Shown here: positions 2,511-25,069 of the stretch, one piece after another
Layout of the letters: every line of letters begins with the position of its first letter
How positions within the stretch are numbered: position 1 is the stretch's first letter
Origin: an uncultured Candidatus Saccharibacteria bacterium
GTDB taxonomy: Bacteria; Patescibacteriota; Minisyncoccia; Phycocordibacterales; JAACPR01
Direction: 5' to 3'
Length of the DNA: 64,000 nucleotides
Assembly: GCA_964538855.1 (NCBI GenBank)
Contig: CAZIEY010000001.1
Location: 245,389-309,388 of the forward strand
The notes under the pieces: generated by a model
Seen by the model: the letters and a program-made list of their open reading frames with translations, nothing else
What the model was told of the DNA's origin: nothing
Database searches by the model: none
Program-made: the position numbers and the translations under genes

Positions 2511-3104
2511 TTAAAGAAACTTTTTAAGCACCTCAAAATCCTTCTTCAATTCTGGTAACCGCTTCCGGTTATACACCGCAACCGCCGGGTGATAGAGCGG
2601 GATGATGGTGACCGGTCCAAATCCGGCCTTAGCTTGAAAAACTTTGCCGTGAATCGTGCTAATGGCTTCAACAGACTCGCCCAAACCCAGCCGGTTCATC
2701 ACATATTCCATAGAAAAACGCCCGAGCGTCGCAATAACACGGGGTTGAATTACATCGATTTGGCGATCCAAAAATGGGCCATACAATTCGATTTCCGCTG
2801 GTTTGGGATCGCGATTATCAGTTGGGCGATCTTTTACGATGTTTGTCACATAGACGGAATCGCGAGACAGGTTAATGTGAGCGAGTAGTTCATCCAAAAT
2901 TCGCCCAGACATTCCGCAAAATGGACGTCCAGTTGCGGCCTCGTTTTTACCAGGCGCTTCTCCAACAAACATGATGTGCGCGTCATGACTTCCCTCACCA
3001 ATCACAGGGTGCGCATTATTTTTCACGCGCTCGGCGTAAAGGGGCGACTTTTTCAAATTCCACACCTCGTCATGAATCTTTTTAATCAGCTCATCCCTGC
3101 TCAT
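2511..3104 (-). CDS. Uracil-DNA glycosylase, family 4
   Basis: 197 aa with the GEGSHDAHIMFVGEAPG...GRPFCG motif typical of family-4 UDG. Confidence 0.8.
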   Translation of the reverse strand: MSRDELIKKIHDEVWNLKKSPLYAERVKNNAHPVIGEGSHDAHIMFVGEAPGKNEAATGRPFCGMSGRILDELLAHINLSRDSVYVTNIVKDRPTDNRDPKPAEIELYGPFLDRQIDVIQPRVIATLGRFSMEYVMNRLGLGESVEAISTIHGKVFQAKAGFGPVTIIPLYHPAVAVYNRKRLPELKKDFEVLKKFL

Positions 3105-3137
3105 ATATAGAAATGTAACAAATTTAGCGCTCGTCGT

Positions 3138-4358: not shown

Positions 4359-4367
4359 AATATGAAA

Positions 4368-6104: not shown

Positions 6105-6225
6105 GTTGCAATTATAGCAGGAGTTTTCAAATCTGCGGCGAGGTTTTTCAGTCTAAAAATAATTTGACACATGCAATTTAAAAGAATAAGGTTTTATAGA
6201 ATCCCAACCATAAGGAGTACGAACA

Positions 6226-6470
6226 TGGGAACGACATCAGTTCTGATCTTGATCCTTTGCCTCGGAATAATGACCTGGGCAGTCATCAAAGCCCCAAAAA
6301 AGCGGGGCGGCAAAAACATCAGCCAACCTCCTCAGAAAACCCCAAGTGCCATCGAGGAGGAGCAGCTGACCAAGGAAGGTAGGTGCCTGACCTGCAAACA
6401 AGTCATGCACAGGGGAAATCCGGATTGGGGTGGAGGTGTGTGCAGGCGGTGTTGGGGCATAAGCCATTGA
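6226..6470 (+). CDS. Small hypothetical protein: N-terminal TM helix and a C-terminal Cys-rich CxxC...CxxC tail
   Basis: AGGAG sits 7 nt upstream of the ATG at 6226. Coding GC is visibly higher than the neighbours. Own promoter-like TTGACA at 6164 and own terminator at 6492. Confidence 0.4.
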
Positions 6471-6491
6471 CCCCTCGCCAAGGGAATTGGG

Positions 6492-6535
6492 GGGCTGGAG
6501 CGTGTGGACATAACCACGCTCCAGCCCTTTTATAA
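6492..6535 (+). terminator. Rho-independent terminator
   Basis: 13-bp perfect stem GGGCTGGAGCGTG/CACGCTCCAGCCC followed by TTTTAT. Confidence 0.65.
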
Positions 6536-6538
6536 TAT

Positions 6539-6568
6539 TTGACAACTCCCTAAAAGTTTTGCTATTAT
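6539..6568 (+). promoter_or_regulatory. Sigma70-like promoter for nusA: TTGACA, 18-nt spacer, TATTAT
   Basis: Consensus -35 with a near-consensus -10, 110 nt upstream of the nusA ATG. Confidence 0.5.
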
Positions 6569-6677
6569 ATAGGGGTTACAGACAAGTTCGCCAACACCAG
6601 GCGGGCTCATTTTTTTAGGAAAAATGGCATTTCGGTGAATTATTAACGCGCGCAAGCGCACTTACAAACCAAAAAAC

Positions 6678-7868
6678 ATGTTCGATTTAAAAATCATCAA
6701 TTCAGTTCTCGCACAGCTCGAAGAAGAGCGCGGAATCCCAAAAGCAAAGATTATCGAAGCGATTGAACTCGCGCTCGGTACTGCATATAAAAAAGAGTAC
6801 GGCAAAAAAGGTCAAATCGTCAAAGCGAAATTCAATCTCGACAGTGGCGACGTGGAATTTTGGCAAACAAAAATTGTAGTCGACAAAGACTCTGTCATTA
6901 TGGAAGGTGACATTACCGAAGAAACTCCAGCAACTGTAGAAGGTACTGAAGAAGTTATGAAAGTTCGCTTCAACCCAGAACATCACATCTTGCTCGAAAA
7001 CGCGAAATTGATGAAGCGTGGCGCAAAAGTCGACGACGAAATTCTCTTCCCTCTCGAAAAGAAGGATGATTTCGGACGCATCTCTGCTCAAACCGCAAAA
7101 CAAGTCATCACTCAAAAGATTCGCGAAGCTGAAAAAGGTATCGTTATGTCAGAATACGGTGAAAAAGAAGGAGAAATTGTCTCTGGAACCGTCGAACGAA
7201 TCGAACGCGGAACTGTATTTTTGGATATGGGTCGCGCAATCGGAACACTCGCCTACGAAGAACAAATTCCAGGCCAGCGATTTAAACAAGGTGAGCGAGT
7301 TCGCGCATATCTTTTCCGCGTCGATGAAACTCCACGTGGTGTTTTCCTAAAACTCTCTCGTTCTCATCCTAAATTCCTCGAAGAATTATTCAAGGCAGAA
7401 GTTCCTGAAATTGCGTCCGGTACTATCGAAATTAAAGCCGTTGCTCGCGAAGCAGGTTCTCGTTCAAAGGTTGCCGTCATCACAAAAGATGATCATGTCG
7501 ATCCTGTCGGAGCGATGGTTGGTCAACGAGGTGTTCGTGTCAGCACAATTACGAGCGAACTTGGTGGAGAAAAAATCGACATTATCGAATGGTCTGAAAA
7601 TCCTACTGCTTTTATCGAAGAAGCCCTCTCTCCTGCGAAGATCTTGAATATCGAAACCGCAGAAACTCCAGAAGGTGGTAAAATTGCCAAAGTGACCGTT
7701 GCCGAAGATCAGCAATCACTCGCGATTGGTAAAGGTGGTCAAAACGTTCGTCTCGCTGCGAAATTGACTGGTTGGAAAATCGACATCCGATCAGATGCAA
7801 AACCAAAGGAAGACGCGGACGACGCAGTATCAACGGAAGAAACTTCAACAGAAACTAACCCAGCATAA
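6678..7868 (+). CDS. nusA: Transcription termination/antitermination factor NusA
   Basis: 396 aa with N-terminal, S1 and KH domains. Typical NusA start MFDLK... Confidence 0.9.
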   Translation: MFDLKIINSVLAQLEEERGIPKAKIIEAIELALGTAYKKEYGKKGQIVKAKFNLDSGDVEFWQTKIVVDKDSVIMEGDITEETPATVEGTEEVMKVRFNPEHHILLENAKLMKRGAKVDDEILFPLEKKDDFGRISAQTAKQVITQKIREAEKGIVMSEYGEKEGEIVSGTVERIERGTVFLDMGRAIGTLAYEEQIPGQRFKQGERVRAYLFRVDETPRGVFLKLSRSHPKFLEELFKAEVPEIASGTIEIKAVAREAGSRSKVAVITKDDHVDPVGAMVGQRGVRVSTITSELGGEKIDIIEWSENPTAFIEEALSPAKILNIETAETPEGGKIAKVTVAEDQQSLAIGKGGQNVRLAAKLTGWKIDIRSDAKPKEDADDAVSTEETSTETNPA

Positions 7869-7870
7869 AT

Positions 7871-8395
7871 ATGACAAACTTATTGCACGACATAGACCCA
7901 GGAACAAAGAGCGAGATGACCACAATCATCGAAATTAACCGCGGTTCAAAGAACAAGTACGAAATCGACAAAAAAACTGGCCTTATTGCGCTCGACCGAG
8001 CAATGCACACAGCCCAGGACTACCCTTTTGACTACGGGTTCGTTCCGCAAACATTATGGGATGACGGCGATGCATTAGACGTGGTTGTTTTGACAACATA
8101 TCCACTTTTCCCAGGCATTTTGGTTCGAGTTCGCCCAGTTGCCATCATTCACATGGTGGATAACGGTGAAAGTGACGCAAAAATCGTCGCTGTTCCAACA
8201 GAAGATCCTCGATTTGATGACGTGAATGACCTCAAAGACGTCAATAAACACACAATCAAAGAAATTGAACACTTCTTCCTCACTTACAAGAAAATTCAAA
8301 AGAAAGAAGTTACAATTAGTGGAATCGAAGGTCGCGAAGCAGCAGAAAAAGCATTCGAACGATCTCGAGAGATGTATAAAGCAAGTAAGAAATAA
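7871..8395 (+). CDS. ppa: Inorganic pyrophosphatase (family I)
   Basis: 174 aa with D-x-D-x-D...DDGD and ALDVVV motifs. Confidence 0.85.
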   Translation: MTNLLHDIDPGTKSEMTTIIEINRGSKNKYEIDKKTGLIALDRAMHTAQDYPFDYGFVPQTLWDDGDALDVVVLTTYPLFPGILVRVRPVAIIHMVDNGESDAKIVAVPTEDPRFDDVNDLKDVNKHTIKEIEHFFLTYKKIQKKEVTISGIEGREAAEKAFERSREMYKASKK

Positions 8396-8407
8396 GGCGT
8401 TCGCGAT

Positions 8408-8440
8408 AAAAAACTCTCTTTGTGAGGGTTTTTTATTTAC
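8408..8440 (+). terminator. Terminator-like hairpin after ppa
   Basis: AAAAAACTCTC...GAGGGTTTTTT stem followed by a T-run. Confidence 0.45.
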
Positions 8441-8495
8441 TTTTCCAAAACTAGTATATAATTATTGCATTATTAGTCGTTAATTAATTGAGCCA

Positions 8496-9359
8496 ATGAA
8501 AAAAAGTTTATACGTTTTATTAATGTGTGGTGTGTTGTTTGCCGGAACTACCGTATTCGCACGTGACGGCGCAAGCGGTGCTGACCGTGCTGATCGAATT
8601 GCAGAACGAGGAGCTGCATTAGAAGAAACACGCGCGGAACGCGAAGCGAAACTTGCCGAAAGAAAGGCTGAGTTTGAAGCAAAACAAGCTGAGCGCGAAG
8701 CAAAAATGGAAGAACGGCGTGCGGAAATTGAAACCAGAATCGCAGAACGAGGTGAAAAAGTCGAGGAACGCACCGCGAAACTCGAGCTCAAAATGGAGGA
8801 GCGTAAAGCCAAAATGGAAGAGCGAGGAGCGGAACGTGCAATCAGAATCGAGGAGCGAAAAACAAAAATCGAAGAGCGCTTTGAAAAAATGAAAGCAAAC
8901 GTTGCTGAACGAAAAGCAAAGTTTGATGAAAAACAAAAAGAACGCGTCGGGAAACTTTTCGACAGAATTTTTGCTACATTTGATCACGTCGCAGAAAAAC
9001 TCGCCAACATTGACGCACGAATTACAGCAAAATTAACTGCGCTCGAAGCCCGAGGTGTCGACACATCCGAAGCCGAAACAAAACTTGAAGCCGCAAAAGA
9101 TTCTCTCAACGCAACGCTCGCTGAAATTGCTTCTGTAAAAGAAACACTAAGTGGCGCAGTCAACGACGAGATGAGCAAAGAATTTGCAAAAGAATTAATT
9201 CAAGGCACAAAAGCTTCTCTCAAATCAACTCACGAAGCATATCGCGCAGTACTCGTATCTGTAAAAAAATCTGACGACGGTGCCGAAGACAAAGTAGAAG
9301 TGGAAAATGAATTTGAAACTGAACATGCAGACGATGTAGACACAGAAGACGCTCAATAA
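8496..9359 (+). CDS. Secreted coiled-coil protein with E/R/K-rich heptad-like repeats
   Basis: Signal peptide MKKSLYVLLMCGVLFAG, then repetitive ERKAK/EERxAE blocks. The DNA is internally repetitive. Confidence 0.55.
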   Translation: MKKSLYVLLMCGVLFAGTTVFARDGASGADRADRIAERGAALEETRAEREAKLAERKAEFEAKQAEREAKMEERRAEIETRIAERGEKVEERTAKLELKMEERKAKMEERGAERAIRIEERKTKIEERFEKMKANVAERKAKFDEKQKERVGKLFDRIFATFDHVAEKLANIDARITAKLTALEARGVDTSEAETKLEAAKDSLNATLAEIASVKETLSGAVNDEMSKEFAKELIQGTKASLKSTHEAYRAVLVSVKKSDDGAEDKVEVENEFETEHADDVDTEDAQ

Positions 9360-9382
9360 TTATTAACTGATATACTATACGT

Positions 9383-9688
9383 ATGGACTTCTCAAATAAT
9401 CAACCAAACAATTTCCCAAACACAATGCCAGGTGCAGTACCACCTAAAAAAGAAAGCGGAGTTGGACCAATTATCGGCTCAATTATTATTATCATATTAT
9501 TGGTTTTGGGTGCACTCTATTTCTACGGATCGATTGTAGAACGACGTCAAACACAGGGCGCTCGAACACCAGCTCTCAGTGAATCAACTCGTGTTGCCGA
9601 CATCGAATCAGACCTTAATGTTCCAGAGCTCGATACAGTTGATGCGGATATGGCAGAATTAGAGGCAGAAATTGACGCAGCATTGTAA
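9383..9688 (+). CDS. Small membrane protein, hypothetical
   Basis: 101 aa with one TM helix (IIGSIIIIILLVLGALYFYG) and an acidic C-terminus. Confidence 0.45.
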   Translation: MDFSNNQPNNFPNTMPGAVPPKKESGVGPIIGSIIIIILLVLGALYFYGSIVERRQTQGARTPALSESTRVADIESDLNVPELDTVDADMAELEAEIDAAL

Positions 9689-9698
9689 TGTAATAAAA

Positions 9699-9732
9699 AA
9701 GCGCGGATGACACACTGCTCCGTGCTTTTTTA
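9699..9732. terminator. Rho-independent terminator, A-run/T-run flanked
   Basis: AAAAAAGCGCGGA...TCCGTGCTTTTTT. Confidence 0.6.
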
Positions 9733-9776
9733 TTACCTTTGATTTTTTACCGATTTTCATATAGAATGCCGGAATC

Positions 9777-10865
9777 ATGTCAGATAAAAAAACAAACAAA
9801 AAACACGATTATAAAGTTTTGAGCAAGGACGAAAAACAAAAAGTTGCGACCTTAGAAATTGAATTGCCTGCCACAGCTCTAGAATCACACAAGGACAAGG
9901 CTCTCAAAAACCTCAGTAAACACATAGAGTTAAAAGGTTTCCGCAAAGGCACCGCTCCGGCCAAAATGGTCGAAGAAACCGTTGGACCAATGCATGTATT
10001 GGAAGAAATGGCACAACTTGCAATTTACGATGTTTTGCCGAACGTTATCGAAAACGAAAAAATCGAAGCCCTTCTCCAGCCGCGCATCGCTGTGACAAAA
10101 ATTGCTGCGGGTAATCCACTCGTATTCAAGGCGGAATTTGTGCTCGTACCCGACATCAAATTAGCTGACTACAAAAAGGTTGCGAAATCTGTCCCGGTAG
10201 AAAAAGACACCAAAATCACCGATAAAGAAATCGAGGAATACATTCAGTACCTTAGAAAATCTCGTGGTGAGGCGGAACATATGCGCCGCAAGACTTCAGC
10301 CGATGCAAAAGAACGTGAATTAGCTCTCGAATTAAAAGAAGCTCCCCTTCCTGAATTTAATGACGAATTTGTAAAAACTCTCGGTGATTTCAAAAACGCA
10401 GAAGAATTCAAAAAAGTTCTCAGCGAAAATATGCAAAAAGAGAAGGAAAACAAAGCTGCGCAAAAACGCCGACTTGAAATCATGGAGAAAATTATCGAAG
10501 CTTCTAAAATCGATTTGCCCGAAGTCATGATCGAAGATGAATTACATCGCATGATGCACCAATTCAGAGATGACATAGAGGCTGCGAAAATTGATTTTGC
10601 TGACTACATGAAGGAAATCAAAAAAACCGAGGACGATATGAAAAAAGAGTGGCGCCCTGACGCAATCAAGCGCGTCATGATGAATTTAATTGTGCCGAAA
10701 ATCGCGCTCGAAGAAAAAATCGAAGCTGACAAAAAACAAGTCGCGCATGAAGTCAAACACCTCCGAGAACATCACAAAGATCTCGATGAAGCCAAAGCAA
10801 CTGCGTACGTCTCATACATGCTGCGCAATGACGCCGTGTTTGCATTTCTTGAATCTATTAAATAA
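9777..10865 (+). CDS. tig: Trigger factor (short form, 362 aa)
   Basis: N-terminal ribosome-binding signature GFRKGTAP and the conserved tig-clpP order. Confidence 0.75.
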   Translation: MSDKKTNKKHDYKVLSKDEKQKVATLEIELPATALESHKDKALKNLSKHIELKGFRKGTAPAKMVEETVGPMHVLEEMAQLAIYDVLPNVIENEKIEALLQPRIAVTKIAAGNPLVFKAEFVLVPDIKLADYKKVAKSVPVEKDTKITDKEIEEYIQYLRKSRGEAEHMRRKTSADAKERELALELKEAPLPEFNDEFVKTLGDFKNAEEFKKVLSENMQKEKENKAAQKRRLEIMEKIIEASKIDLPEVMIEDELHRMMHQFRDDIEAAKIDFADYMKEIKKTEDDMKKEWRPDAIKRVMMNLIVPKIALEEKIEADKKQVAHEVKHLREHHKDLDEAKATAYVSYMLRNDAVFAFLESIK

Positions 10866-10893
10866 GCTATAATCAAACCTAACCACACATATT

Positions 10894-11475
10894 ATGTTAA
10901 TCCCAACCGTAATCGAGAAATCACAATTCGGCGAGCGTGCGTATGATATTTATTCGCGACTTCTCAAAGACAATATTATCTTTTTGAGCGGACCTATCGA
11001 CGATCATGTCGCAAACATTGTCATCGCGCAATTGCTATTTTTACAATCCGAAGATTCCAAAAAAGACATTTCGCTCTACATCAATTCACCGGGTGGTTCG
11101 ATCAGCGCAGGTCTTGCGATTATCGACGCGATGAATTACATCAAAAACGACATTACGACTGTTTGTGTTGGAATGGCTGCATCTATGGGTGCCGTTATTT
11201 TGTCAGCTGGTAAAAAAGGCAAGCGCTTCATTTTACCAAATGCCGAAGTCATGATTCATCAACCGCATGGTGGTGCCGAAGGTCAAGCTTCTGATATCGA
11301 AATCAGCGCGAAACGAATTATCAAAAGCCGCGAGACTTTGAATAAAATGCTCGCGAAAAACACCGGGCAGCCTCTCGCTCGAGTGGAAAAAGATGCCGAC
11401 CGAGACTTCTTTATGTCAGCCGAAGAAGCGAAAAAGTACGGCATTATCGACAAGATTTTGGTGGTTACGAAATAA
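10894..11475 (+). CDS. clpP: ATP-dependent Clp protease proteolytic subunit
   Basis: 193 aa with the Ser-His-Asp triad context (GMAASMGA..., MIHQP). Confidence 0.9.
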
Positions 11476-11488
11476 ATTTTTTAAACGA

Positions 11489-11520
11489 AAAGCCCCGCAT
11501 ATATCTCGCGGGGCTTTTTC
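11489..11520. terminator. Bidirectional rho-independent terminator between clpP and pheA
   Basis: AAGCCCCGC...GCGGGGCTT stem with T-runs on both strands. Confidence 0.6.
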
Positions 11521-12393
11521 CTATGTAGAAAGAACTTGAAACGGTCCAAAAGTAATGTGCTTTACAACTGCACGTTCAAACTCTTGGAGCGCTTCATTGA
11601 AAGAACTAATTCTCCTTTGCTCCACCTCGACCTCGATGGCAAAATCATACGTGCCGTTATTCACATGCACAGAATGAATCTGCATCAAGTTCAAACCGCG
11701 TTTTTCCCACGGCTCCAAAGCGCGAACAAGTGCGCCTGGCGCATCAGCGGTTCGAAACACAATCAGCGCTCGATTCTGTTCTCCGATCACACGACCACAC
11801 GCAGTCGATCCAAGCAAGAAAAACGTGGTGATAGCCGTCGCATCTTCACACGCATCCGCGACGATATTCAAGCCGAACTTTTCCGCTGCCGAAATAGGCC
11901 CGAGCGCAGCCCATGTACCGAAACCAGAATCTTCTGCGACCATGCGTGCAGCCTCTCCGTTACTGGTCGCTTCTTTGGTAGGCACCTCCAGTCGGCCCAC
12001 ATTCCCCCTACACGCACCCAGAGCCTTTGGATGGGCCACCACACCTGTCACCTGTGACAGTGCCACACCGGCTCGAGCCATCAGACAGAAGCTCAGTTTC
12101 ATTTTCAACGCACGAATAACTGAAAAAGGTCTCGTACTGTTGTCATAATTACCGAGCAATCCAATGAAAGCTTCGAGTGGCTCAGCGACACGGCCCTGCG
12201 CGGCGGTTTCCATTGCAATCGCACCAAAACCTCCATGCTGTACAATCGCTTCAATCACCTTCGGATTGGTAGGAACGGGCTGATAATCCGCCTCTTTTCC
12301 AATCGGAGCCCCATATTCAGTTGCCAGTCTGTGATAAGCAACATCAGAAAACGTCGCTCCCAGAGGACCCAAAAACGTCACGCGATTATTCAT
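11521..12393 (-). CDS. pheA: Prephenate dehydratase (PDT plus ACT domain)
   Basis: 290 aa with N-terminal VTFLGPLGATFSDVA, TTFFLLG and a C-terminal ACT domain. GC is somewhat above the local mean. Confidence 0.8.
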   Translation of the reverse strand: MNNRVTFLGPLGATFSDVAYHRLATEYGAPIGKEADYQPVPTNPKVIEAIVQHGGFGAIAMETAAQGRVAEPLEAFIGLLGNYDNSTRPFSVIRALKMKLSFCLMARAGVALSQVTGVVAHPKALGACRGNVGRLEVPTKEATSNGEAARMVAEDSGFGTWAALGPISAAEKFGLNIVADACEDATAITTFFLLGSTACGRVIGEQNRALIVFRTADAPGALVRALEPWEKRGLNLMQIHSVHVNNGTYDFAIEVEVEQRRISSFNEALQEFERAVVKHITFGPFQVLST

Positions 12394-12440
12394 ACTCTCC
12401 TCCTTACGTTGCGCTTGCGCGCGGTTTGTGGTTTAAGCCT

Positions 12441-12476
12441 AAAAACAAAAATCCGCCACCCGGAGTGGGTGACGGT
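12441..12476 (-). promoter_or_regulatory. Terminator-like hairpin plus U-run in the pheA 5' leader (candidate attenuator)
   Basis: On the minus strand, CCGTCACCCACTCCGGGTGGCGG is followed by ATTTTTGTTTTT, about 50 nt upstream of the pheA ATG. Confidence 0.35.
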
Positions 12477-12649
12477 TGTTTTCAAACTTGTGATACGACA
12501 CTAATTCACCCCTCGGATGTCCGAATTTGAGAAATTAGATGTGAAAAATGAATTTGTATGTATCACAGGTGTATATAATATCAAAAAAAGTGACCTTGCA
12601 AAACCCCCTCCAAAAGCATAGTATTCATTTGTAATACACTCATAAAACC

Positions 12650-14179
12650 ATGCAATTAATCATCGTTTTACTCATTGCAGCAGCGTCAGGGCTCGCCGGT
12701 ATCGCGGTAGGATGGTTTTTACGCTTTATTATTGCACTCGGACGACGCGGTTCAATGGAGCTCGAGATCAAAGAAATGATGCTCACTGCGCGTGAACAAG
12801 CCGAAAAAATCACGTCGCTTGCAGAAAAAAAGGCTGAAACAATCATCGCCGAATCGCGCGCCCAAGCCAAAAAAGAAGAAGATCGCATTCAGAAAACCGA
12901 AGATCGCCTCATCAACAAAGAGGCGCTGCTCGACAAACGTCAAATTGACCTCGACGCGGAATTTGAAAATCAAAAGGAAAAATACGCAGAAATCGAAGCT
13001 TTGCGTGTGAAACTCGAAAACGAAATCGACAAAAAAACTGAGGAGTTGCAAAAAATCGCCGATGTTTCACGCGAGGACGCCAAAAAAATGCTTCTCGAAC
13101 AGCTTGAAAAAGACTATTCCGAGGATTTGGCGGTGCGCATTCAGAAATTAAGCACTTCAAATCGCGACACTATGGACAAAAAAGCCAAGGAAATTCTCGC
13201 GGCTGCGATCCAGCGCCTCGGGACAGCAGTACCAGCCGACATTTTCTCCTCGGTCATTGATTTGAAAAACGAGGAAATCAAAGGAAAAATCATCGGAAAA
13301 GAAGGGCGAAACATCAAAACATTTGAACGCCTCACAGGGGTTGAGATTTTGATAGATGACACCCCTGGCATTATTACCCTTTCTTCATATGATCCGGTGC
13401 GCCGGGAAATCGCCAAAGTCGCCCTGGAAAGCCTCATTCAAGACGGTCGCATTCAACCTGCCAAAATCGAACATTATATTGAAAAAGCTCAAAAGGAAGT
13501 CAATGAAATCATTCGCAAACAAGGTGAAAAGGCTGCCTACGAATGCGGAGTCTTTGACTTGGACCCTAAATTACTCGTTATTTTAGGCCGTCTCCATTAT
13601 CGAACGAGCTTCGGTCAAAACATTTTGCAACACTCTATTGAAATGGCACATTTGGCCGGTATGATTGCCGAAGAACTGGGTGCAGACGTAAAAATCGCAA
13701 AAGCAGGCGCATTATTACACGATATTGGTAAAGCAATCGATCACGAAGTCGCCGGCTCTCACCTCGAAATCGGACGACGCATTTTGCAGAAATTCAACGT
13801 CGATGAACGTATTATCAAAGCAATGCAAGCCCATCACGAAACATATCCATTCGAAACTGTTGAATCAATTATCGTATATGTGTGTGATCATATTTCAGGA
13901 GGTCGCCCAGGCGCACGACGCGATAATGCAGAAAATTACATCAAGCGACTTTCAGACCTCGAAGCTATTGCCAACTCATTCGAAGGTGTGGTGAAATCAT
14001 ACGCTATCCAAGCGGGTCGTGAGATACGCATTTTCGTCAATCCAGAGGCCGTCAGCGATACCGAAGCAGCCAAAATAGCTCGAAATATAGCCCTTAAAAT
14101 AGAAAAAGAGATAAAATACCCTGGCGAAATTCGCATCACTGTTATACGCGAAAACAAGATTGTTGAATTTGCTCGATAA
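12650..14179 (+). CDS. rny: Ribonuclease Y
   Basis: 509 aa with an N-terminal TM, coiled coil, KH domain and HD domain (HSIEMAHLAG...LHDIGK). Confidence 0.85.
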   Translation: MQLIIVLLIAAASGLAGIAVGWFLRFIIALGRRGSMELEIKEMMLTAREQAEKITSLAEKKAETIIAESRAQAKKEEDRIQKTEDRLINKEALLDKRQIDLDAEFENQKEKYAEIEALRVKLENEIDKKTEELQKIADVSREDAKKMLLEQLEKDYSEDLAVRIQKLSTSNRDTMDKKAKEILAAAIQRLGTAVPADIFSSVIDLKNEEIKGKIIGKEGRNIKTFERLTGVEILIDDTPGIITLSSYDPVRREIAKVALESLIQDGRIQPAKIEHYIEKAQKEVNEIIRKQGEKAAYECGVFDLDPKLLVILGRLHYRTSFGQNILQHSIEMAHLAGMIAEELGADVKIAKAGALLHDIGKAIDHEVAGSHLEIGRRILQKFNVDERIIKAMQAHHETYPFETVESIIVYVCDHISGGRPGARRDNAENYIKRLSDLEAIANSFEGVVKSYAIQAGREIRIFVNPEAVSDTEAAKIARNIALKIEKEIKYPGEIRITVIRENKIVEFAR

Positions 14180-14292
14180 TGTGGGGTGCTTGCATTCTGT
14201 TGCTACAAAAACCCTTATTTTATATAATGTTTGGGTGCGCAATGAGAAGCTAACAAGGCACTTTTATTAAAATAACTTCACGAATAAAAACC

Positions 14293-14565
14293 ATGAATAA
14301 AGCAAGCTTAGTTGATGTAATCCACGGAGTACTCGGTGGAACAAAAGTTCAAGCAGAACAAGTTGTTGATACACTTTTCGACACAATCACTGCATCTTTG
14401 AAAAAAGGTGAAGAAGTATCAGTAGCAGGTTTCGGAATCTTTTCAGTAAAAGACCGAGCAGCTCGAACAGCTCGAAACCCACGAACTGGCGAAACTGTAC
14501 AAGTTGCCGCTATGAAAGTTCCAAAGTTCAAGGCTGCTAAGGCTTTGAAAGATTCAGTTAAATAA
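14293..14565 (+). CDS. hup: DNA-binding protein HU
   Basis: 90 aa with the GFGxF...RNPxTGE HU signature. Confidence 0.85.
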   Translation: MNKASLVDVIHGVLGGTKVQAEQVVDTLFDTITASLKKGEEVSVAGFGIFSVKDRAARTARNPRTGETVQVAAMKVPKFKAAKALKDSVK

Positions 14566-14605
14566 GACTGTCTCCCGCGCGGTGCACTATGTGCCGAGCA
14601 TAAAC

Positions 14606-14640
14606 AAAAACCCCGCCGTGATGGTGGGGTTTTTGTTTGT
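14606..14640 (+). terminator. Rho-independent terminator after hup
   Basis: AAAAACCCCGCC...GGTGGGGTTTTTGTTTG. Confidence 0.55.
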
Positions 14641-14754
14641 TTGCTTTTATAAAATACTTTGGCTAGACTGACAAAGGAGTCGATTTTATCGACAAGCTTC
14701 ACACACAGCTAAAGTGTGCAAATGAACACTGACAACGCATTGGAGGATTATCTC

Positions 14755-15696
14755 ATGATCAGGTTTTCGAATGGACATCAATTTGAGTACATGACCGCAG
14801 GTGGAGCACTCGGCTTCGACGGTCGTGGCTGGATGTGGGAATGGCCGTTGAAATGGTGCGGGCTAATGAAGCCTCGCCTCTTCACGATCGTTCTGCGAAC
14901 CCTAACTTCAGACCCACGAACATGGAACACTGATCCGGCGGCAAACTTGTCCTGGATTCGTCCGTGGACTTGGTTGCCCTGGAGTCCGTGGTCCTGCGTT
15001 CGGTTCTTGCCGAACGGTGGCGCAGTCAACAAGGTCGGTCTTTATAACCCCGGCATTGATTGGTGGTGCAATGAAGTTGCGCCACATCTCGACTACGCAA
15101 ACCAACCTCTGGTCGGTTCAATCTTTGGGAACGAAGACGAACTGGTCCCGATGGCGCACCGAATGGACGCCTACGATCTAGTTGGACTTGAAGTCAACTG
15201 TTCCTGCCCGAACTCTGGGCACAGAATGGACGCGGTGGCCAAAGTGGTGGAGGGAGTGTCTGCAGTGAAGGCCAGGTCTCGACATCCCATCATTGTTAAG
15301 GTCTCCGTTGATCAAGATTACATCGCCATCGCACGCGGACTCAAAGGAATTGCGGAAGCGATCTCCCTGAACAGTGTTCCCTGGAACACTGCGTTTCCAG
15401 GAGGGGCGTGCAAAACCCCTCTCTGGAGACTTGAAAAGCGAGTCAAGGGTGGAGGTGGCGGTGTGTCCGGGAAACCGGCACAACGAGCCAACTGGAAAGC
15501 TGTCGAGGAATTGGCGGCTGACGGTTCGCTTCCTGTTATTGGGCCAAGCATCATGGAATACGAAGACATGGATCGTGTCCGGACTCTCGGCGCAAAAGCC
15601 GTGAGTTTCGGCGCGATTCACCTTCGCACTCCATGGAGGCCAACGCAATTCGTTGAAAGAGAAACCCTGAAACAGAAAGGACAAGGTGGAGTATGA
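14755..15696 (+). CDS. pyrD: Dihydroorotate dehydrogenase family protein (class-1-like, Cys in the SCPN motif). The N-terminal third is unusually Trp-rich.
   Basis: GGAGGA SD precedes the ATG at 14755. Motifs GFDGRG, KPRLF, NKVGLYNPG, LEVNCSCPNSG and the GGGGVSG...GPSIMEYED tail match DHODH. The gene is about 57% GC. Confidence 0.65.
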   Translation: MIRFSNGHQFEYMTAGGALGFDGRGWMWEWPLKWCGLMKPRLFTIVLRTLTSDPRTWNTDPAANLSWIRPWTWLPWSPWSCVRFLPNGGAVNKVGLYNPGIDWWCNEVAPHLDYANQPLVGSIFGNEDELVPMAHRMDAYDLVGLEVNCSCPNSGHRMDAVAKVVEGVSAVKARSRHPIIVKVSVDQDYIAIARGLKGIAEAISLNSVPWNTAFPGGACKTPLWRLEKRVKGGGGGVSGKPAQRANWKAVEELAADGSLPVIGPSIMEYEDMDRVRTLGAKAVSFGAIHLRTPWRPTQFVERETLKQKGQGGV

Positions 15697-16742
15697 GCAA
15701 AGTACAACTGAGGATTCGCAGGTGGTTTGAGCGCCACTTGCACGTTCGCGATGGTGCGATGATGAGCGCAGTACTCCCGTGCACGATTCAACAACGTGCG
15801 ACGGGAGCGATCATCATGCCGAATCTACAGCCCGACCCGATCACCACGATCGAAAGGGCAGAGGCCTATCGTGATCGGATTCTGGCCGCTCGCGGCGACT
15901 CCGACTTTGTGCCATGCATGACCTGCTATCTGACGGATCACACCGATCCCGAAGAAGTCGTGAGAGGTTTCAAAGGAGGCGTCTGGCGAGCAGTGAAACT
16001 CTACATGGCCAATCAACAAGGCCAAGGTGGAACCACTGGTTCGGCACATGGCGTGAGAGATCTACTCAGCCGCTACTCGGTGTTTGAAGCAATGGAAGAA
16101 CATCAAATTCCACTGCTCGGACATTTTGAAGCGGTTGAGGACGATGTTGACGAATTCGATCGCGAGATCGTCTCCGTTGACCGCGATCTCGCGCCCATTC
16201 TGGGGCATTTCCCGAAATTGCCGGTGGTCTTTGAGCACCTCACGGACGGACGCGCAGCGGAATATGTCGCCTCGCTCGGTGACAACGTCAATGCCACAGT
16301 GACGGCGCATCATCTCATGATCAATCGGAATGCAATGTTTGCGGGAGGAATGAATCCTACCAACTACTGCAGACCGGTGCCGAAACGTGAGAAACACCGC
16401 CTGAAGGTTCGCAAGTATGTGACGGATGGAAACAAACATTTCGGAGCAGGGACTGACTCTGCGCCACATGATGTTTCCAAAAAATCACAGCCTTGTGGCT
16501 GTGCTGCGGGAATATTCACCGCACCGAATGCTGTGGAACTGTACACTCAGGTGTTCGACGAGGACGGCGCGCTCGACAAACTCGCAGCGTTTCTCTCGGA
16601 AAATTTCCTGGACATCTACGGCATGAAGCCCAGCGATCAGATGATGGTCATTGAGCGGAAACCTTTCGAGGTGCCCGACACAGTGAACAACGTCAAAGTC
16701 TTCAAGGGTGGTGAGGTCCTCCCCTGGAAACTCGTTGGGTGA
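15693..16742 (+). CDS. pyrC: Dihydroorotase, type II (E. coli PyrC-like)
   Basis: 349 aa aligns end-to-end by eye with E. coli PyrC (HLHVRDG, IMPNL, MTCYLTD, VFEHLT, GTDSAPH, CGCAG). ATGA overlap with pyrD. GC-rich. Confidence 0.85.
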   Translation: MSKVQLRIRRWFERHLHVRDGAMMSAVLPCTIQQRATGAIIMPNLQPDPITTIERAEAYRDRILAARGDSDFVPCMTCYLTDHTDPEEVVRGFKGGVWRAVKLYMANQQGQGGTTGSAHGVRDLLSRYSVFEAMEEHQIPLLGHFEAVEDDVDEFDREIVSVDRDLAPILGHFPKLPVVFEHLTDGRAAEYVASLGDNVNATVTAHHLMINRNAMFAGGMNPTNYCRPVPKREKHRLKVRKYVTDGNKHFGAGTDSAPHDVSKKSQPCGCAAGIFTAPNAVELYTQVFDEDGALDKLAAFLSENFLDIYGMKPSDQMMVIERKPFEVPDTVNNVKVFKGGEVLPWKLVG

Positions 16743-16843
16743 AATCCCCAGTTCTTTAGACCTCGAACTCCGGCCACTTGCAAAAGTGCGTCCGGGGTTC
16801 TTTATTTTTATACCTAATCAAATAAAAATTGTGTTTGAAAAAT

Positions 16844-16917
16844 TGGTGCGGGCAGGGAGAATCGAACTCCCGTCTACTGCTTGGAAGGCAGTCATTCTAC
16901 CACTAAACCATGCCCGC
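16844..16917 (-). tRNA. tRNA-Gly(TCC), CCA encoded
   Basis: Cloverleaf folds by hand: acceptor GCGGGCA/TGCCCGC, anticodon loop CTTCCAA, T-loop TTCGATT. Confidence 0.85.
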
Positions 16918-16985
16918 GATTAGAAAAATATAGCAGGAAACGAACTTTTATTCAACTCCTTAATCTCTCTGTGTCTCTGAAATTT

Positions 16986-17123
16986 TACATGACTTACATA
17001 TGATTTTTAAGTGGGCTTTCGGAGGACGTTCGGTTTCTCCCAAGTAACGTCCGAGAACGAGCTGAGTTTTTCCGATAGGAAAAACTACAGCGTACCAATC
17101 AAAAATCATATGTAAGTCATGTA
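16986..17123. repeat. Inverted-repeat-bounded element: 23-bp perfect IR, or a 21-bp terminal inverted repeat CATGACTTACATATGATTTTT flanked by TA on both sides (MITE-like).
   Basis: Left arm 16986-17008 equals the reverse complement of right arm 17101-17123 exactly. The 92-nt interior has internal hairpins. It sits in the promoter/5' region of the 17147 gene. Confidence 0.5.
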
Positions 17124-17146
17124 GAATTTCTGATATACTCTATTTC

Positions 17147-19801: not shown

Positions 19802-20137
19802 TTAGTACGCCCGCTTTCCCTTTGTAGAAAGTGCGACGAGTTCGTTGAACGAATCCCCTACCGCGGCCTTATTTCTGCGTTCGTGACTACATTTCTGACA
19901 TTTTTGGACAATATAAAAAACATCGCTTTTATTTTCGAGGCTCGTCGGTTCCATCAATCCCCCGCAAGTCGCTGCGCGATCCCCAGGATTCACATCCACG
20001 TGTTTTGACCACAGACATTTCGGGCAATGATTTGTATAGCCGTTTCCATGCACCAGCTGTCCGCATTTTTCACACACAAAATCCTCCTCTCGCTTTTGAA
20101 ACTGCTTCGCCGGTAAACTTCCCTTTGATTCTGCCAT
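19802..20137 (-). CDS. RNHCP-domain zinc-ribbon protein
   Basis: Contains FVCEKCGQ...YTNHCPKCLWSKHVD...CQKCSHER. The start was trimmed to Met44 of the track ORF because the upstream part overlaps tRNA-Pro. Confidence 0.5.
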   Translation of the reverse strand: MAESKGSLPAKQFQKREEDFVCEKCGQLVHGNGYTNHCPKCLWSKHVDVNPGDRAATCGGLMEPTSLENKSDVFYIVQKCQKCSHERRNKAAVGDSFNELVALSTKGKRAY

Positions 20138-20144
20138 ATAAATG

Positions 20145-20217
20145 TCGGAGCACTGGGATTCGAACCCAGAGTCATTCGCTCCCAAAGCGAACATGTTAGC
20201 CGTTACACCATGCTCCG
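20145..20217 (-). tRNA. tRNA-Pro(TGG), no encoded CCA
   Basis: Acceptor CGGAGCA/TGCTCCG, anticodon loop TTTGGGA, T-arm CTGGG-TTCGAAT-CCCAG. Confidence 0.75.
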
Positions 20218-20272
20218 ATATAACAAAGCAAATACTATCAGAAATGCGGCGATAAACAAGGGTCATATGCCT

Positions 20273-24103: not shown

Positions 24104-25069
24104 TTATGCCTGCTCACTTTTCCCGTGAAACTTTTTGTGCACATCTCGCAAATGTTTGTCGGTGACGTGCGTATAAATTTGCGTCGTCGCGATATTCGAG
24201 TGACCAAGCATTGCTTGAACAGAACGCAAGTCTGCTCCGTTCGATAGCAAATCTGTTGCAAAACAATGACGAATCACGTGCGGTGTTACCTTTTTGGAAA
24301 TGCCGGCGATAGTCGCGTAGCGTTTTACAATGCGCTCGATTGATCGACGAGTCAAACCATCCTCTTTATTTTCCGGCTGTGTCCCACGTTTTTTCTCGTC
24401 GGAAATTTTTACAAAAAGTGCATCCGACATGTCTTTGCGAAGTTTCAAATATGCAGACACTGCTTTTTTCGCGCTGTCTGAAATAAAAACGACGCGCACC
24501 TTACCACCCTTACCACGAATCGACAGTTCATCTTGACCCAAGTCGATATCATTACCAAGCGAACACAATTCCGAGACACGCAAACCAGTCGAGAAGAGTA
24601 GTTGCAAAATAGCGTGACCACGAGCAGATTTTTCCGGGTCCTTGTCCTGATTCGGAGCATTGAGAAGACGCTTCAATTCATCGCGTGAAATAACATCTAT
24701 GGTTCGCTCACCAACTTTAGCAAGCTCGATTTGGTCGGCGGGGAGGGAAGTGATGCCACGGCGTGTCAAAAATTTTAAAAAAGTCCGCAAAGCAATCATG
24801 TAGTAATTCTGAGTCTTCTTTTTCATCGTCTCGCCGGTCGCGCGATTATTTCCAGCCGACTGTCGATTGAGCCACATACGGAACTCACGCACCACCGTTT
24901 CCGTGAGCTGTTTCGGTCCAGTAATTTTTGTCTGATTAATAAAAACCGTTAGATAGTGGTCATAATTTTGAATTGTGCGAAGAGCGCGACCCTTCTCGAT
25001 TTCGATATATTCGAGAAATTGCCGCTTGAGAGACTGAATTTCACTAGTTTGAGTCATACTTGTTGCCAA
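24104..25069 (-). CDS. Tyrosine site-specific recombinase XerC/XerD family
   Basis: 321 aa with C-terminal RHCFATDLL...LGHSNIATTQIYTHV and the catalytic R..HxxR..Y pattern. Confidence 0.8.
   Translation of the reverse strand: MATSMTQTSEIQSLKRQFLEYIEIEKGRALRTIQNYDHYLTVFINQTKITGPKQLTETVVREFRMWLNRQSAGNNRATGETMKKKTQNYYMIALRTFLKFLTRRGITSLPADQIELAKVGERTIDVISRDELKRLLNAPNQDKDPEKSARGHAILQLLFSTGLRVSELCSLGNDIDLGQDELSIRGKGGKVRVVFISDSAKKAVSAYLKLRKDMSDALFVKISDEKKRGTQPENKEDGLTRRSIERIVKRYATIAGISKKVTPHVIRHCFATDLLSNGADLRSVQAMLGHSNIATTQIYTHVTDKHLRDVHKKFHGKSEQA

What the first reader, a model, noticed from the sequence alone, without database searches (positions are those of the whole stretch)
14700..16843. GC-rich pyrD-pyrC islet abutting tRNA-Gly(TCC): likely horizontally acquired pyrimidine-biosynthesis genes
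The roughly 2.1 kb containing pyrD and pyrC is visibly about 55-58% GC, against roughly 33-45% for neighbouring genes. It is bounded by the hup terminator on one side and the 3' end of tRNA-Gly on the other, the classic island insertion context.

PyrC aligns by eye almost colinearly with proteobacterial (E. coli-type, class II) dihydroorotase. Only two consecutive steps of de novo pyrimidine synthesis are present in the window (no pyrB/E/F nearby). This is unusual if the host is a reduced-genome organism that is normally auxotrophic for nucleotides.
Basis: partly seen in the sequence, partly recalled or inferred. Interest (0 to 1): 0.65.

Follow-up and report, generated by a model that had tools for sequence, protein, structure and literature searches.

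The report
Recently inserted mobile pyrimidine-gene cassette
A 2.2-kb, GC-rich, self-contained two-gene operon for two steps of pyrimidine synthesis was recently inserted beside a tRNA gene in a tiny-genome Patescibacteria bacterium; it came from other Patescibacteria, not Proteobacteria, and carries a previously undescribed structured RNA leader.

Summary
The GC-rich islet is real. Window 14755-16742 is 54% GC against 42.5% for the window, and its GC3 excess exceeds that of all 47 host genes tested.

It is a recent insertion. Three syntenic relatives (RNase Y 93, 92 and 77% identical) lack it. Homology to them stops at the hup terminator (about 14640) and resumes at the tRNA-Gly 3' end (16846).

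The inserted unit is a whole operon:
- a promoter-like site
- a structured leader of about 80 nt
- a divergent class-1-like dihydroorotate dehydrogenase gene
- a class II dihydroorotase gene
- a terminator

The donor was not a proteobacterium. The best homologues of both proteins (59-77% identity) are Patescibacteria. In other Patescibacteria the same 2.1-kb unit shares 81-92% nucleotide identity between genomes of 33-54% GC whose flanks are unrelated, so it moves laterally within the phylum. One clade sits in Lichenihabitans (Alphaproteobacteria).

No integrase or att repeats were found. Relatives often have pyrE- and pyrF-like genes next to the cassette.

The leader consists of a hairpin, an H-type pseudoknot and an invariant GAACATTGAAA. 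It shows covariation, recurs upstream of pyrE- and pyrF-like genes, and matches no Rfam family.

The parts
14600..14640 (+). hup (HU) intrinsic terminator, which marks the left edge of the insertion site. It is host DNA, not part of the cassette.
   Evidence: Called by the terminator scan. It is homologous to L087 9100-9144, and homology to relatives ends here.
14641..16845 (+). Inserted segment: the whole laterally acquired cassette, about 2.2 kb.
   Evidence: Window 14571-16845 has no counterpart in L085, L087 or L088, which are otherwise colinear. Homology to the closest known cassette (L210) begins at 14640. The unit shared among other Patescibacteria runs from about -118 nt before the ATG to about +60 nt after the stop codon.
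14641..14669 (+). Promoter-like site: TTGCTT (14641-14646), 17 nt, TAGACT (14664-14669).
   Evidence: It aligns with TTGATT-N17-TAAGGT of related cassettes (A2) and with L210. It is inferred only; it fell below the consensus scan's threshold.
14676..14754 (+). Structured 5' leader. P1 is GTCGAT 14679-14684 paired with ATCGAC 14688-14693. P2 is AGCT 14695-14698 paired with AGCT 14707-14710. P3 (pseudoknot) is CACAC 14702-14706 paired with GTGTG 14714-14718. The conserved motif GAACACTGACA lies at 14724-14734 and the SD GGAGGA at 14742-14747.
   Evidence: Covariance model R1 hits 14669-14756 at 67.9 bits, E 1.8e-11. There is no Rfam match.
14755..15696 (+). pyrD-like gene: a divergent class-1-type dihydroorotate dehydrogenase-like flavoenzyme of 313 aa.
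   Evidence: PF01180 scores 51 bits, while NCBIfam PyrD models are far below cut-off. The N-x-S-C-P-N catalytic Cys motif and the orotate- and FMN-site residues are invariant in the family. The AlphaFold model (pLDDT 84) best matches L. lactis DHODB PyrD at TM 0.70.
15693..16742 (+). pyrC: class II (homodimeric, E. coli-type) dihydroorotase of 349 aa. Its start overlaps the pyrD-like stop (ATGA).
   Evidence: TIGR00856 scores 319.5 bits against a cut-off of 293. Burkholderia 4lfy gives E 2.8e-87, with HxH, Lys, His, His and Asp ligands and the Thr-Thr loop aligned.
16765..16811 (+). Intrinsic terminator of the cassette: hairpin at 16765-16800 followed by UUUAUUUUUAU.
   Evidence: Fold energy is -21.8 kcal/mol, z = -4.3. 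Related cassettes have an analogous hairpin plus T-run (A3).
16844..16917 (-). tRNA-Gly(TCC), which marks the right edge of the insertion site. It is a host gene present in all relatives.
   Evidence: ARAGORN and Rfam calls. It is 93-95% identical to the tRNA in L085 and L087, and similarity starts at its 3' end.

Best explanation
Window 14641-16845 is a self-contained operon cassette. It was inserted recently, by lateral transfer from another Patescibacteria lineage, into a variable spot of a Paceibacterota genome between the hup terminator and the 3' end of tRNA-Gly(TCC).

The unit carries:
- its own promoter-like site
- a structured leader of about 80 nt (5' hairpin, H-type pseudoknot, invariant GAACAYTGAAA just upstream of the ribosome-binding site)
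- two translationally coupled genes
- its own terminator

Gene 2 is a class II dihydroorotase (carbamoyl-aspartate <-> dihydroorotate). Gene 1 is a divergent class-1-like, Cys-base, FMN-type dihydroorotate dehydrogenase (dihydroorotate -> orotate; electron acceptor unknown). Together they supply orotate for UMP synthesis, through pyrE- and pyrF-type genes that lie next to the pair in many relatives.

The high GC has two sources. About half comes from the amino-acid composition of the two proteins. The rest is a synonymous-site signature that has not yet drifted to the host's value.

Shown: the composition anomaly, the empty sites in relatives, the boundaries, the family assignments, lateral spread of the same unit in other Patescibacteria, and covariation in the leader.

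Inferred: enzymatic activities, the biosynthetic direction, the regulatory role of the leader, the promoter, and the way the DNA was inserted.
For: Composition. GC is 54% against 42.5%. The GC3 excess of +0.115 and +0.165 is above all 47 host genes.

Empty site. L085 (RNase Y 93% identical, 352-kb contig) is colinear with window 2650-14570 and has only 84 bp between hup and tRNA-Gly. L087 (92%) and L088 (77%) hold other cargo at the same spot.

Not an assembly error. The same junctions occur in independent assemblies: L001 spans both, and L002 spans the left junction only.

Donor pool. Every named hit among the best 120 homologues of each protein is from Patescibacteria, at 59-77% identity. 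The genome scan adds 80 loci, mostly Patescibacteria.

Mobility of the unit.
- Cassettes in L011, L014, L009, L022, L015, L032, L004, L019 and L038 share 79-92% nucleotide identity over only about 2.0-2.15 kb.
- Their flanks are unrelated and range from 33 to 54% GC.
- The closest known relative (L210) becomes homologous to the window exactly at 14640.

Function.
- TIGR00856 scores above cut-off and the metal ligands are conserved.
- The DHODH catalytic Cys, substrate and FMN residues are invariant, and the fold matches DHODB and DHODA.
- pyrE-like, PRT2 and pyrF genes are adjacent in many loci.

Leader.
- The model found 38 hits, all on the sense strand and directly upstream of pyr-type genes, in 1.35 Mb.
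- 89% of cells are paired, against 23-47% in slid controls.
- 82 cells show compensatory changes, against 30.6 in shuffles (0 of 500 shuffles reach the observed value).
- The result holds on a structure-blind MAFFT alignment.
Against: - No donor close enough to name is known. The best non-self hits are 77% (PyrD-like) and 74% (PyrC) identical.
- No integrase, att repeats or terminal inverted repeats were found, so the insertion mechanism is unknown.
- Gain rather than repeated loss rests on parsimony plus composition.
- The cassette is GC-richer than its host in nearly all low-GC Patescibacteria and never clearly AT-richer. Some intrinsic constraint on its composition may therefore add to the transfer signal.
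- pyrE, pyrF and pyrB were not found in this 64-kb window, so the pathway context in this genome is unknown.
- RNAalifold predicts no consensus fold for the leader, and no activity or expression data exist.
Confidence: 0.8

Rival explanations
1. The pair is ancestral and vertically inherited at this site, and relatives lost it. On this view the GC excess only reflects the amino-acid composition and expression level of the two enzymes.
For: About half of the GC excess is explained by amino-acid composition. The cassette is GC-richer than its host in most Patescibacteria, which could indicate an intrinsic bias. The hup/tRNA-Gly site turns over quickly, so losses are possible.
Against: Three relatives at graded distances (92, 93 and 77% RNase Y identity) all lack it. 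The GC3 excess exceeds every one of the 47 host genes tested. The highly expressed host gene hup has low GC3 (0.23), so expression does not raise GC3 here. Relatives this close would give PyrC hits near 90% identity, but the best is 74%. The same unit demonstrably moves between unrelated genomes.
Confidence: 0.08
2. The islet was acquired directly from a proteobacterium.
For: PyrC is of the class II type, and its best solved relatives are proteobacterial (Burkholderia 4lfy 2.8e-87; E. coli about 1e-76). The PyrD-like family also occurs in Lichenihabitans and Lichenibacterium.
Against: All named close homologues of both proteins are from Patescibacteria, at 59-77% identity. The Lichenihabitans PyrD-like proteins are only 56-59% identical and form one clade. 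They pair with a different dihydroorotase type (23-30% identical to the window PyrC) and sit at 65-74% GC, not 54%. The leader, promoter and terminator are shared with Patescibacteria cassettes, not with the proteobacterial loci.
Confidence: 0.03
3. The enzymes do not feed UMP synthesis in this organism. They would run in the catabolic direction (orotate -> dihydroorotate -> carbamoyl-aspartate, as in orotate-fermenting clostridia; established knowledge) or act on a related cyclic ureide.
For: Only these two steps are present in 64 kb. The PyrD-like enzyme is far from characterised DHODHs (20-23% identity), has no PyrK partner, and in this subgroup carries a Trp-rich insertion. Lichenihabitans, presumed from general knowledge (not checked here) to have a standard pyr pathway, keeps an extra copy of the cluster.
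Against: In many relatives the pair is adjacent to, and shares its leader with, pyrE-like and pyrF genes. That is the biosynthetic continuation. PyrC passes the equivalog cut-off. All orotate-binding Asn residues and the catalytic Cys are invariant.
Confidence: 0.12
4. The islet is an assembly chimera or a mis-binned fragment.
For: The composition jumps sharply, and metagenome assemblies can be chimeric. One related locus (L011) does show a contig-end artefact.
Against: The junctions recur in independent assemblies from different sequencing runs. L001 (SRR13208889) spans RNase Y-HU-cassette-peptidase. L002 (SRR13208906) ends 162 nt after the pyrC stop codon (11212 versus 11050) and supports the left junction only. 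An NCBI contig of 388 kb is on record as carrying identical copies of both proteins, but its sequence was not retrieved, so its junctions were not examined.
Confidence: 0.01

Closest known systems
Class II (homodimeric, E. coli-type) dihydroorotase, PyrC (NCBIfam TIGR00856)
   Same: It matches over its full length and scores above the curated cut-off. The HxH, carboxylated-Lys, His, His and Asp positions and the Thr-Thr loop align with Burkholderia 4lfy; E. coli 1j79 matches at about 1e-76 but was not aligned residue by residue.
   Different: There is a 5-residue insertion (QQGQG) just before the catalytic loop. Pfam Amidohydro_1 does not detect the protein. It is encoded on a mobile two-gene cassette in Patescibacteria.
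Class 1 dihydroorotate dehydrogenases (L. lactis DHODB PyrD subunit; DHODA; trypanosomatid DHODH), Pfam PF01180
   Same: It has the TIM-barrel fold (TM 0.70). The catalytic Cys in N-x-S-C-P-N, the orotate-binding Asn residues, the FMN Lys and the GG-x-SG phosphate loop are conserved.
   Different: It is only 20-23% identical, and NCBIfam PyrD models score 73 bits or less against cut-offs of 267 or more. The N-terminal 87 residues are not alignable by sequence. The usual G-x-G-G loop reads G-P-S. No PyrK partner gene is present. This subgroup has a Trp-rich insertion of about 20 residues and Arg in place of the conserved Lys. The electron acceptor is unknown.
tRNA-associated genomic islands
   Same: It abuts the 3' end of a tRNA gene, has deviant composition, is absent from close relatives, and the same site holds different cargo in different strains.
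   Different: At 2.2 kb it has no integrase, no direct repeat of the tRNA 3' end and no mobility genes. In other genomes the same cassette lies at unrelated, non-tRNA sites.
H-type pseudoknot riboswitches (SAM-II/SAM-V, preQ1-II, fluoride) and pyrimidine-operon leaders (PyrR attenuator; E. coli pyrC/pyrD start-site hairpin control); comparison from established knowledge
   Same: It is a short leader directly upstream of the ribosome-binding site of pyrimidine genes. It has a compact pseudoknot followed by a conserved single-stranded A-rich stretch, and it is reused in front of several genes of one pathway.
   Different: It matches no Rfam 15 family, including the PyrR site. The sequence motif is different, and no ligand or binding protein is known. 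It has been seen so far only in Patescibacteria.

Membership tests
Class II dihydroorotase (TIGR00856 pyrC_dimer) | Full-length match above the curated equivalog cut-off | tested here: met
   319.5 bits against 292.95, covering residues 6-347 of 349.
Class II dihydroorotase (TIGR00856 pyrC_dimer) | Binuclear-metal ligands (HxH, carboxylated Lys, His, His, Asp) and the catalytic Thr-Thr loop | tested here: met
   RHLHVRD, VKLY, LLGHFE, VFEHLT, GTDSAPH and GGTTGS align with the corresponding residues of 4lfy.
Class II dihydroorotase (TIGR00856 pyrC_dimer) | Dihydroorotase activity and homodimer formation | not testable with these tools
   Needs enzyme assays and a structure.
Dihydroorotate dehydrogenase, class 1 (PF01180; NCBIfam PyrD equivalogs) | Pfam DHO_dh domain above the gathering score | tested here: met
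   51.1 bits against 27, but only residues 101-277 of the 326-aa ORF match.
Dihydroorotate dehydrogenase, class 1 (PF01180; NCBIfam PyrD equivalogs) | Score above an NCBIfam PyrD equivalog or subfamily cut-off | tested here: not met
   The best score is 73.1 bits against a cut-off of 269 (NF005574); all six models are far below cut-off. NCBI records name relatives 'hypothetical protein'.
Dihydroorotate dehydrogenase, class 1 (PF01180; NCBIfam PyrD equivalogs) | Catalytic Cys base, orotate-binding Asn residues and FMN-binding Lys and Gly loop | tested here: met
   N92, N148, S150, C151, N153, K182, N206, G235, G236, S238 and G239 are invariant in 28 family members and align to DHODB.
Dihydroorotate dehydrogenase, class 1 (PF01180; NCBIfam PyrD equivalogs) | Fold of class 1 DHODH | tested here: met
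   The model has pLDDT 84 and pTM 0.87. The top PDB matches are DHODB 5ue9_A (TM 0.70, E 1.3e-15), then class 1A DHODHs, then DPD.
Dihydroorotate dehydrogenase class 1B | Adjacent PyrK-type FAD/[2Fe-2S] electron-transfer subunit gene | tested here: not met
   No such gene lies in the cassette or among recurrent neighbours in 80 loci. The only recurrent neighbours are dihydroorotase, PRTase-like and pyrF genes.
tRNA-integrated genomic island | Lies at the 3' end of a tRNA gene and is absent from close relatives | tested here: met
tRNA-integrated genomic island | Integrase gene within the island | tested here: not met
   The segment holds only two ORFs. The nearest Phage_integrase-type gene (24104-25069) is conserved in synteny in L085 and lies 7 kb away.
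tRNA-integrated genomic island | Direct repeat of the tRNA 3' end at the far boundary (attL/attR) | tested here: not met
   The only match is 11-13 nt at 14851-14863, inside the pyrD-like ORF and about 200 nt from the boundary. No repeats beyond chance occur at the boundaries.
Cis-regulatory structured RNA (riboswitch-like leader) | Conserved secondary structure supported by compensatory changes | tested here: met
   P1, P2 and P3 are 89% paired against 23-47% in slid controls, with 82 compensatory cells against 30.6 in shuffles (0 of 500). P2 and P3 hold on a structure-blind alignment (86% against 16-47%). G-U pairs occur on the sense strand. Caveat: RNAalifold predicts no consensus fold.
Cis-regulatory structured RNA (riboswitch-like leader) | Consistent position 5' of functionally related genes | tested here: met
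   All 38 hits are on the sense strand and directly upstream of pyrD-like, pyrE-like, PRT2 or pyrF-pyrE genes.
Cis-regulatory structured RNA (riboswitch-like leader) | Specific binding of a ligand or protein, with a regulatory effect | not testable with these tools
   Needs in-line probing, ITC or reporter assays.
Any Rfam 15 family (including the PyrR binding site) | Covariance-model match | tested here: not met
   No hit overlaps the leader even at E <= 10, either in the window or at the two copies in L032.

The most novel reading that the evidence does not exclude
The leader (hairpin, H-type pseudoknot and invariant GAACATTGAAA) may be a new riboswitch class that senses a pyrimidine-pathway metabolite, a type of ligand for which no riboswitch is established. 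It would control pyrC, pyrD, pyrE and pyrF in Patescibacteria. The pyrD-like/pyrC unit would then be a 'plug-and-play' operon that carries its own promoter, sensor and terminator. It spreads between Patescibacteria of very different GC content and once entered lichen-associated Alphaproteobacteria. It would also carry a new DHODH subclass adapted to organisms without a respiratory chain.
Probability: 0.3. Interest if true: 0.8.

Novelty: new variant of a known kind. Interest (0 to 1): 0.6.

Why it matters
Patescibacteria (the CPR) are thought to depend on hosts for nucleotides. This window shows a compact, self-regulated module for part of pyrimidine synthesis being traded among these bacteria, caught here just after insertion with the empty site preserved in sister genomes.

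The finding offers three things:
- a clean natural example of how reduced genomes gain metabolic steps
- an uncharacterised dihydroorotate dehydrogenase family whose electron acceptor in fermentative, quinone-less cells is an open question
- a testable candidate regulatory RNA for pyrimidine genes that is absent from Rfam

It also shows that a compositional islet in these genomes need not come from another phylum.

Tried and rejected
- att repeats. I searched for att-type repeats of the tRNA-Gly 3' end and for terminal inverted or direct repeats at the cassette ends, in the window and in nine related loci. Nothing in the window exceeded chance. The 11-13-nt tRNA-end match at 14851-14863 lies inside the ORF and was rejected. 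L019 alone has 49-nt flanking direct repeats. The 99-nt perfect inverted repeat in L011 touches the contig end and was rejected as an artefact.
- tRNA adjacency. As a general property of the cassette it was rejected: 1 of 53 loci.
- Phage or plasmid carriage. There were no relatives in IMG/VR viral contigs or PLSDB plasmids.
- Metagenome scan. A loose leader pattern returned 80 loci, none of which matched the covariance model.
- RNAalifold. It gave no consensus fold on either alignment. The alternative hairpin AGUGU/ACACU predicted for the window leader is not in a consistent register across relatives and was not adopted.
- Consensus promoter and terminator scan. It did not call the cassette promoter or the long-loop terminator. 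Both rest on alignment and folding.
- Literature. Five full-text searches on Patescibacteria or CPR with dihydroorotate, orotate or riboswitch found nothing relevant.
- Organism name. Exact cluster look-up gave no name for the source genome.
- Neighbour clustering. In high-GC proteobacterial loci my crude ORF-based clustering was polluted by spurious ORFs and was used only for the low-GC loci.
Full report
**1. Observation**

The compositional islet is real. In 400-nt windows GC is 0.53-0.56 from 14800 to 16799 and 0.39-0.46 on either side. The window as a whole is 42.5% GC.

Two overlapping ORFs fill the islet: 14716/14755-15696 and 15693-16742, both on the plus strand. They are 54% GC, with GC3 of 0.56-0.57 and 0.60. 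These are the highest values among the long ORFs of the window.

I separated amino-acid effects from synonymous effects. With the host's own synonymous codon usage these two proteins would be 50.8% and 48.3% GC. Roughly half of the excess is therefore protein composition. The remaining GC3 excess is +0.115 and +0.165. For 47 host genes the same measure has sd 0.052 and maximum 0.092.

tRNA-Gly(TCC) is at 16844-16917 on the minus strand, with its 3' end facing the islet. The hup gene and its terminator (14293-14565 and 14600-14640) lie on the other side.

**2. The genes**

Gene 2 is a class II, E. coli-type dihydroorotase.
- TIGR00856 scores 319.5 bits against a cut-off of 293.
- Burkholderia 4lfy matches at 2.8e-87 and E. 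coli at about 1e-76. The HxH, Lys, His, His and Asp metal ligands and the Thr-Thr loop are in place, and there is a 5-residue insertion before the loop.

Gene 1 is not a standard PyrD.
- It passes Pfam DHO_dh only modestly (51 bits, central 180 residues).
- It scores 73 bits or less on NCBIfam PyrD models whose cut-offs are 267 or more.
- NCBI records name its relatives 'hypothetical protein'.
- Its true start is ATG 14755, giving 313 aa with GGAGGA eight bases upstream. This is shown by the identical database protein and by 27 aligned relatives.
- The class 1 catalytic motif N-x-S-C-P-N, the orotate-binding Asn residues, the FMN Lys and the GG-x-SG loop are invariant in the family.
- An AlphaFold model (pLDDT 84) best matches the PyrD subunit of L. 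lactis DHODB (TM 0.70), then class 1A enzymes, then dihydropyrimidine dehydrogenase.
- The window's subgroup has a Trp-rich insertion of about 20 residues, which is modelled with low confidence, and Arg where most members have the conserved Lys.
- No PyrK-like partner gene accompanies it anywhere.

The two genes overlap by ATGA, which implies translational coupling.

**3. Whose genes are they?**

The host is a Paceibacterota (Patescibacteria) bacterium. The RNase Y next door has named relatives only from that group.

The best 120 database relatives of both cassette proteins are 59-77% identical. Every one that carries an organism name is from Patescibacteria: Paceibacterota, Kaiser-, Taylor-, Staskawicz- and Vogelbacteria.

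A scan of one genome per species for 185,579 species found the PyrD-like family in 80 loci. Most are Patescibacteria. One additional clade sits in Lichenihabitans and Lichenibacterium (Alphaproteobacteria), including cultured isolates and megabase contigs. A further locus (L071) sits on a 7.8-kb, 66-67% GC contig binned as an Acidobacteriota MAG and branches among Patescibacteria copies; I did not follow it up. Those proteobacterial copies:
- are 56-59% identical to the window protein
- form one clade among Patescibacteria branches in a midpoint-rooted NJ tree
- have host-like GC (65-74%)
- pair with a different dihydroorotase type

A direct proteobacterial origin of the window's islet is therefore not supported.

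**4. Recent insertion: the empty-site test**

Host RNase Y has relatives at 93% (L085, a 352-kb contig), 92% (L087) and 77% (L088) identity. All are syntenic with the window, in the order NusA, pyrophosphatase, trigger factor, ClpP, RNase Y, HU.

By blastn, L085 is colinear with window 2650-14570. Window 14571-16845 then has no counterpart, and similarity resumes at 16846, the 3' end of tRNA-Gly (93%). In L085 only 84 bp separate hup from the tRNA.

L087 is the closest relative (85-90% nucleotide identity in the flanks). At the same spot it holds 4.75 kb of unrelated genes. L088 holds a 114-aa ORF.

Alignments place the left junction right after the hup terminator T-run (about 14640) and the right junction at the first base beyond the tRNA. 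The closest known cassette (L210: PyrD-like 77% aa, 71% nucleotide) becomes homologous to the window exactly at 14640.

The junctions recur in independent assemblies (L001 both, L002 the left one), so this is not a chimera. One gain is more parsimonious than three losses. It also fits the synonymous-site signature, which has not yet drifted to the host's value.

**5. The unit is mobile elsewhere**

In about 55 Patescibacteria loci the cassette is usually GC-richer than its flanks. Examples are L014 (53% against 33%) and L009 and L022 (53-56% against 37%).

Cassettes of L011 (flanks 54% GC), L014 (33%), L009, L022, L015, L032, L004, L019 and L038 share 79-92% nucleotide identity over only 2.0-2.15 kb. 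That span runs from about 118 nt upstream of the ATG to about 60 nt past the stop codon. Nothing else in the 10-kb flanks is similar.

In L016 and L017 only the pyrD-like half is shared, next to another dihydroorotase type, so the cassette is mosaic.

The window's insert runs from -115 to +103 nt around the coding region, which matches this unit.

Other checks on how the unit travels:
- tRNA adjacency is not a general feature (1 of 53 loci).
- No integrase, att repeat or terminal repeat is present in the window.
- No phage or plasmid copy was found.

How the DNA is inserted remains unknown. Uptake of DNA followed by illegitimate recombination at a permissive intergenic hotspot is my inference only.

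**6. Pathway context**

In many relatives the pair is followed or preceded by one or more of:
- a pyrE-like phosphoribosyltransferase (best NCBIfam match pyrE_Therm, below cut-off)
- a second divergent PRTase-like gene ('PRT2')
- pyrF, or a pyrF-pyrE fusion (TIGR01740 above cut-off)

These are documented. The module is therefore best read as the carbamoyl-aspartate-to-UMP branch.

In this window neither pyrE nor pyrF was found by tblastn. No relevant domains appear in the ORFs scanned or in those annotated through synteny. The rest of the genome could not be examined.

**7. A conserved structured leader**

The roughly 100 nt upstream of the ATG are conserved between the window and cassettes whose PyrD-like proteins are only 62% identical. 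The elements are:
- a promoter-like TTGCTT-N17-TAGACT at 14641-14669
- hairpin P1 (14679-14693)
- P2, AGCT/AGCT (14695-14710), whose loop (CACAC, 14702-14706) pairs with GTGTG (14714-14718) to give an H-type pseudoknot, P3
- the near-invariant GAACAYTGAAA (14724-14734)
- the Shine-Dalgarno sequence

A covariance model built from 24 leaders found 38 hits in 1.35 Mb of loci plus the window. All are on the sense strand and directly upstream of pyr-type genes. Eight are new copies in front of pyrE-like, PRT2 and pyrF-pyrE genes, with fresh compensatory variants such as AAGGC/GCCTT and GTGCT/AGCAT.

Covariation counts:
- On the model-fitted alignment, 89% of cells pair against 23-47% with slid partners. 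There are 82 compensatory cells against 30.6 in shuffles (0 of 500).
- On a structure-blind MAFFT alignment, P2 and P3 give 86% against 16-47%, and 28 against 13.6 compensatory cells (0 of 500).

Caveats:
- The sequences are related, so the number of independent events is smaller than the number of cells.
- RNAalifold predicts no consensus fold.
- My attempt to enlarge the sample from metagenomes failed.

No Rfam 15 family matches the leader, including the PyrR site, and five literature searches found no description.

I read it as a cis-regulatory RNA of the pyrimidine genes, possibly a riboswitch. The effector is unknown.

A strong hairpin plus U-run ends the unit at 16765-16811.

**8. Verdict**

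The donor, the nature of 'pyrD' and the island mechanism need correction.

What is there is a 2.2-kb self-contained operon cassette that circulates among Patescibacteria and has recently landed in a variable hotspot of this genome. Lateral gene gain in these bacteria is known in general. The new elements are the precisely delimited mobile unit, the divergent DHODH-like family and the undescribed leader RNA.

Noticed in passing
window 11521-12393 (-), segment 11538-12594: A prephenate dehydratase gene (51% GC) is a second presence/absence difference. It is present in the window and in L085, but absent from L087, L088 and L089, where ClpP is followed directly by RNase Y. Its GC excess is mostly amino-acid composition; the GC3 excess of +0.05 is within the host range.
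   Followed up: partly
window 16957-17145 (arms 16971-17014 and 17095-17138): A 189-bp stretch between tRNA-Gly and the peptidase gene carries 44-nt inverted arms that are 86% complementary. It has no counterpart in L087 and occurs once in the window. It may be a MITE-like insertion or a structured RNA.
   Followed up: partly
L087 6935-11684 (site equivalent to window 14641-16845): The closest relative holds 4.75 kb of other cargo at the same hup/tRNA-Gly site (TrmB, Peripla_BP_6, MJ1673-like, TrmB). This includes a second copy of the hup 3' end plus terminator (L087 8951-9144, matching window 14447-14638). The site is a recombination hotspot.
   Followed up: partly
L019 4434-4482 and 6626-6674: In a Taylorbacteria genome the cassette is bracketed by 49-nt direct repeats (94% identical), each containing a 19-bp-stem palindrome. 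This is the only hint of a target duplication or recombination site.
   Followed up: no
L028, L030, L036, L039, L044, L047 and other loci (Lichenihabitans/Lichenibacterium): Lichen-associated Alphaproteobacteria, including two cultured isolates, carry a homologous cluster of pyrD-like, dihydroorotase-like and PRT2-like genes at host-like GC. This is an inter-phylum transfer of the module. The 'Janthinobacterium' MAG contig L045 is nearly identical to Lichenibacterium L035 and is probably mis-binned.
   Followed up: partly
window 44976-48950: yidC (minus strand), dnaA and dnaN lie in the lowest-GC part of the window (35%). This is probably the chromosomal replication origin region.
   Followed up: no
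window 33822-44859: A run of same-strand ORFs, mostly without Pfam matches, surrounds a TraG/VirB4-type P-loop ATPase (40003-41901). It may be a type IV secretion or conjugation-like cluster.
   Followed up: no
window 19802-20266 (-) and 20144-20217 (-): The listed RNHCP-domain ORF overlaps tRNA-Pro(TGG). In L085 the homologue is 129 aa, so the real start is probably internal.
   Followed up: no
L011 1-99 and 2209-2307: A 99-nt, 100% complementary inverted repeat reaches the contig end in the Kaiserbacteria GW2011 assembly. It is most likely a fold-back assembly artefact, not a feature of the cassette.
   Followed up: partly
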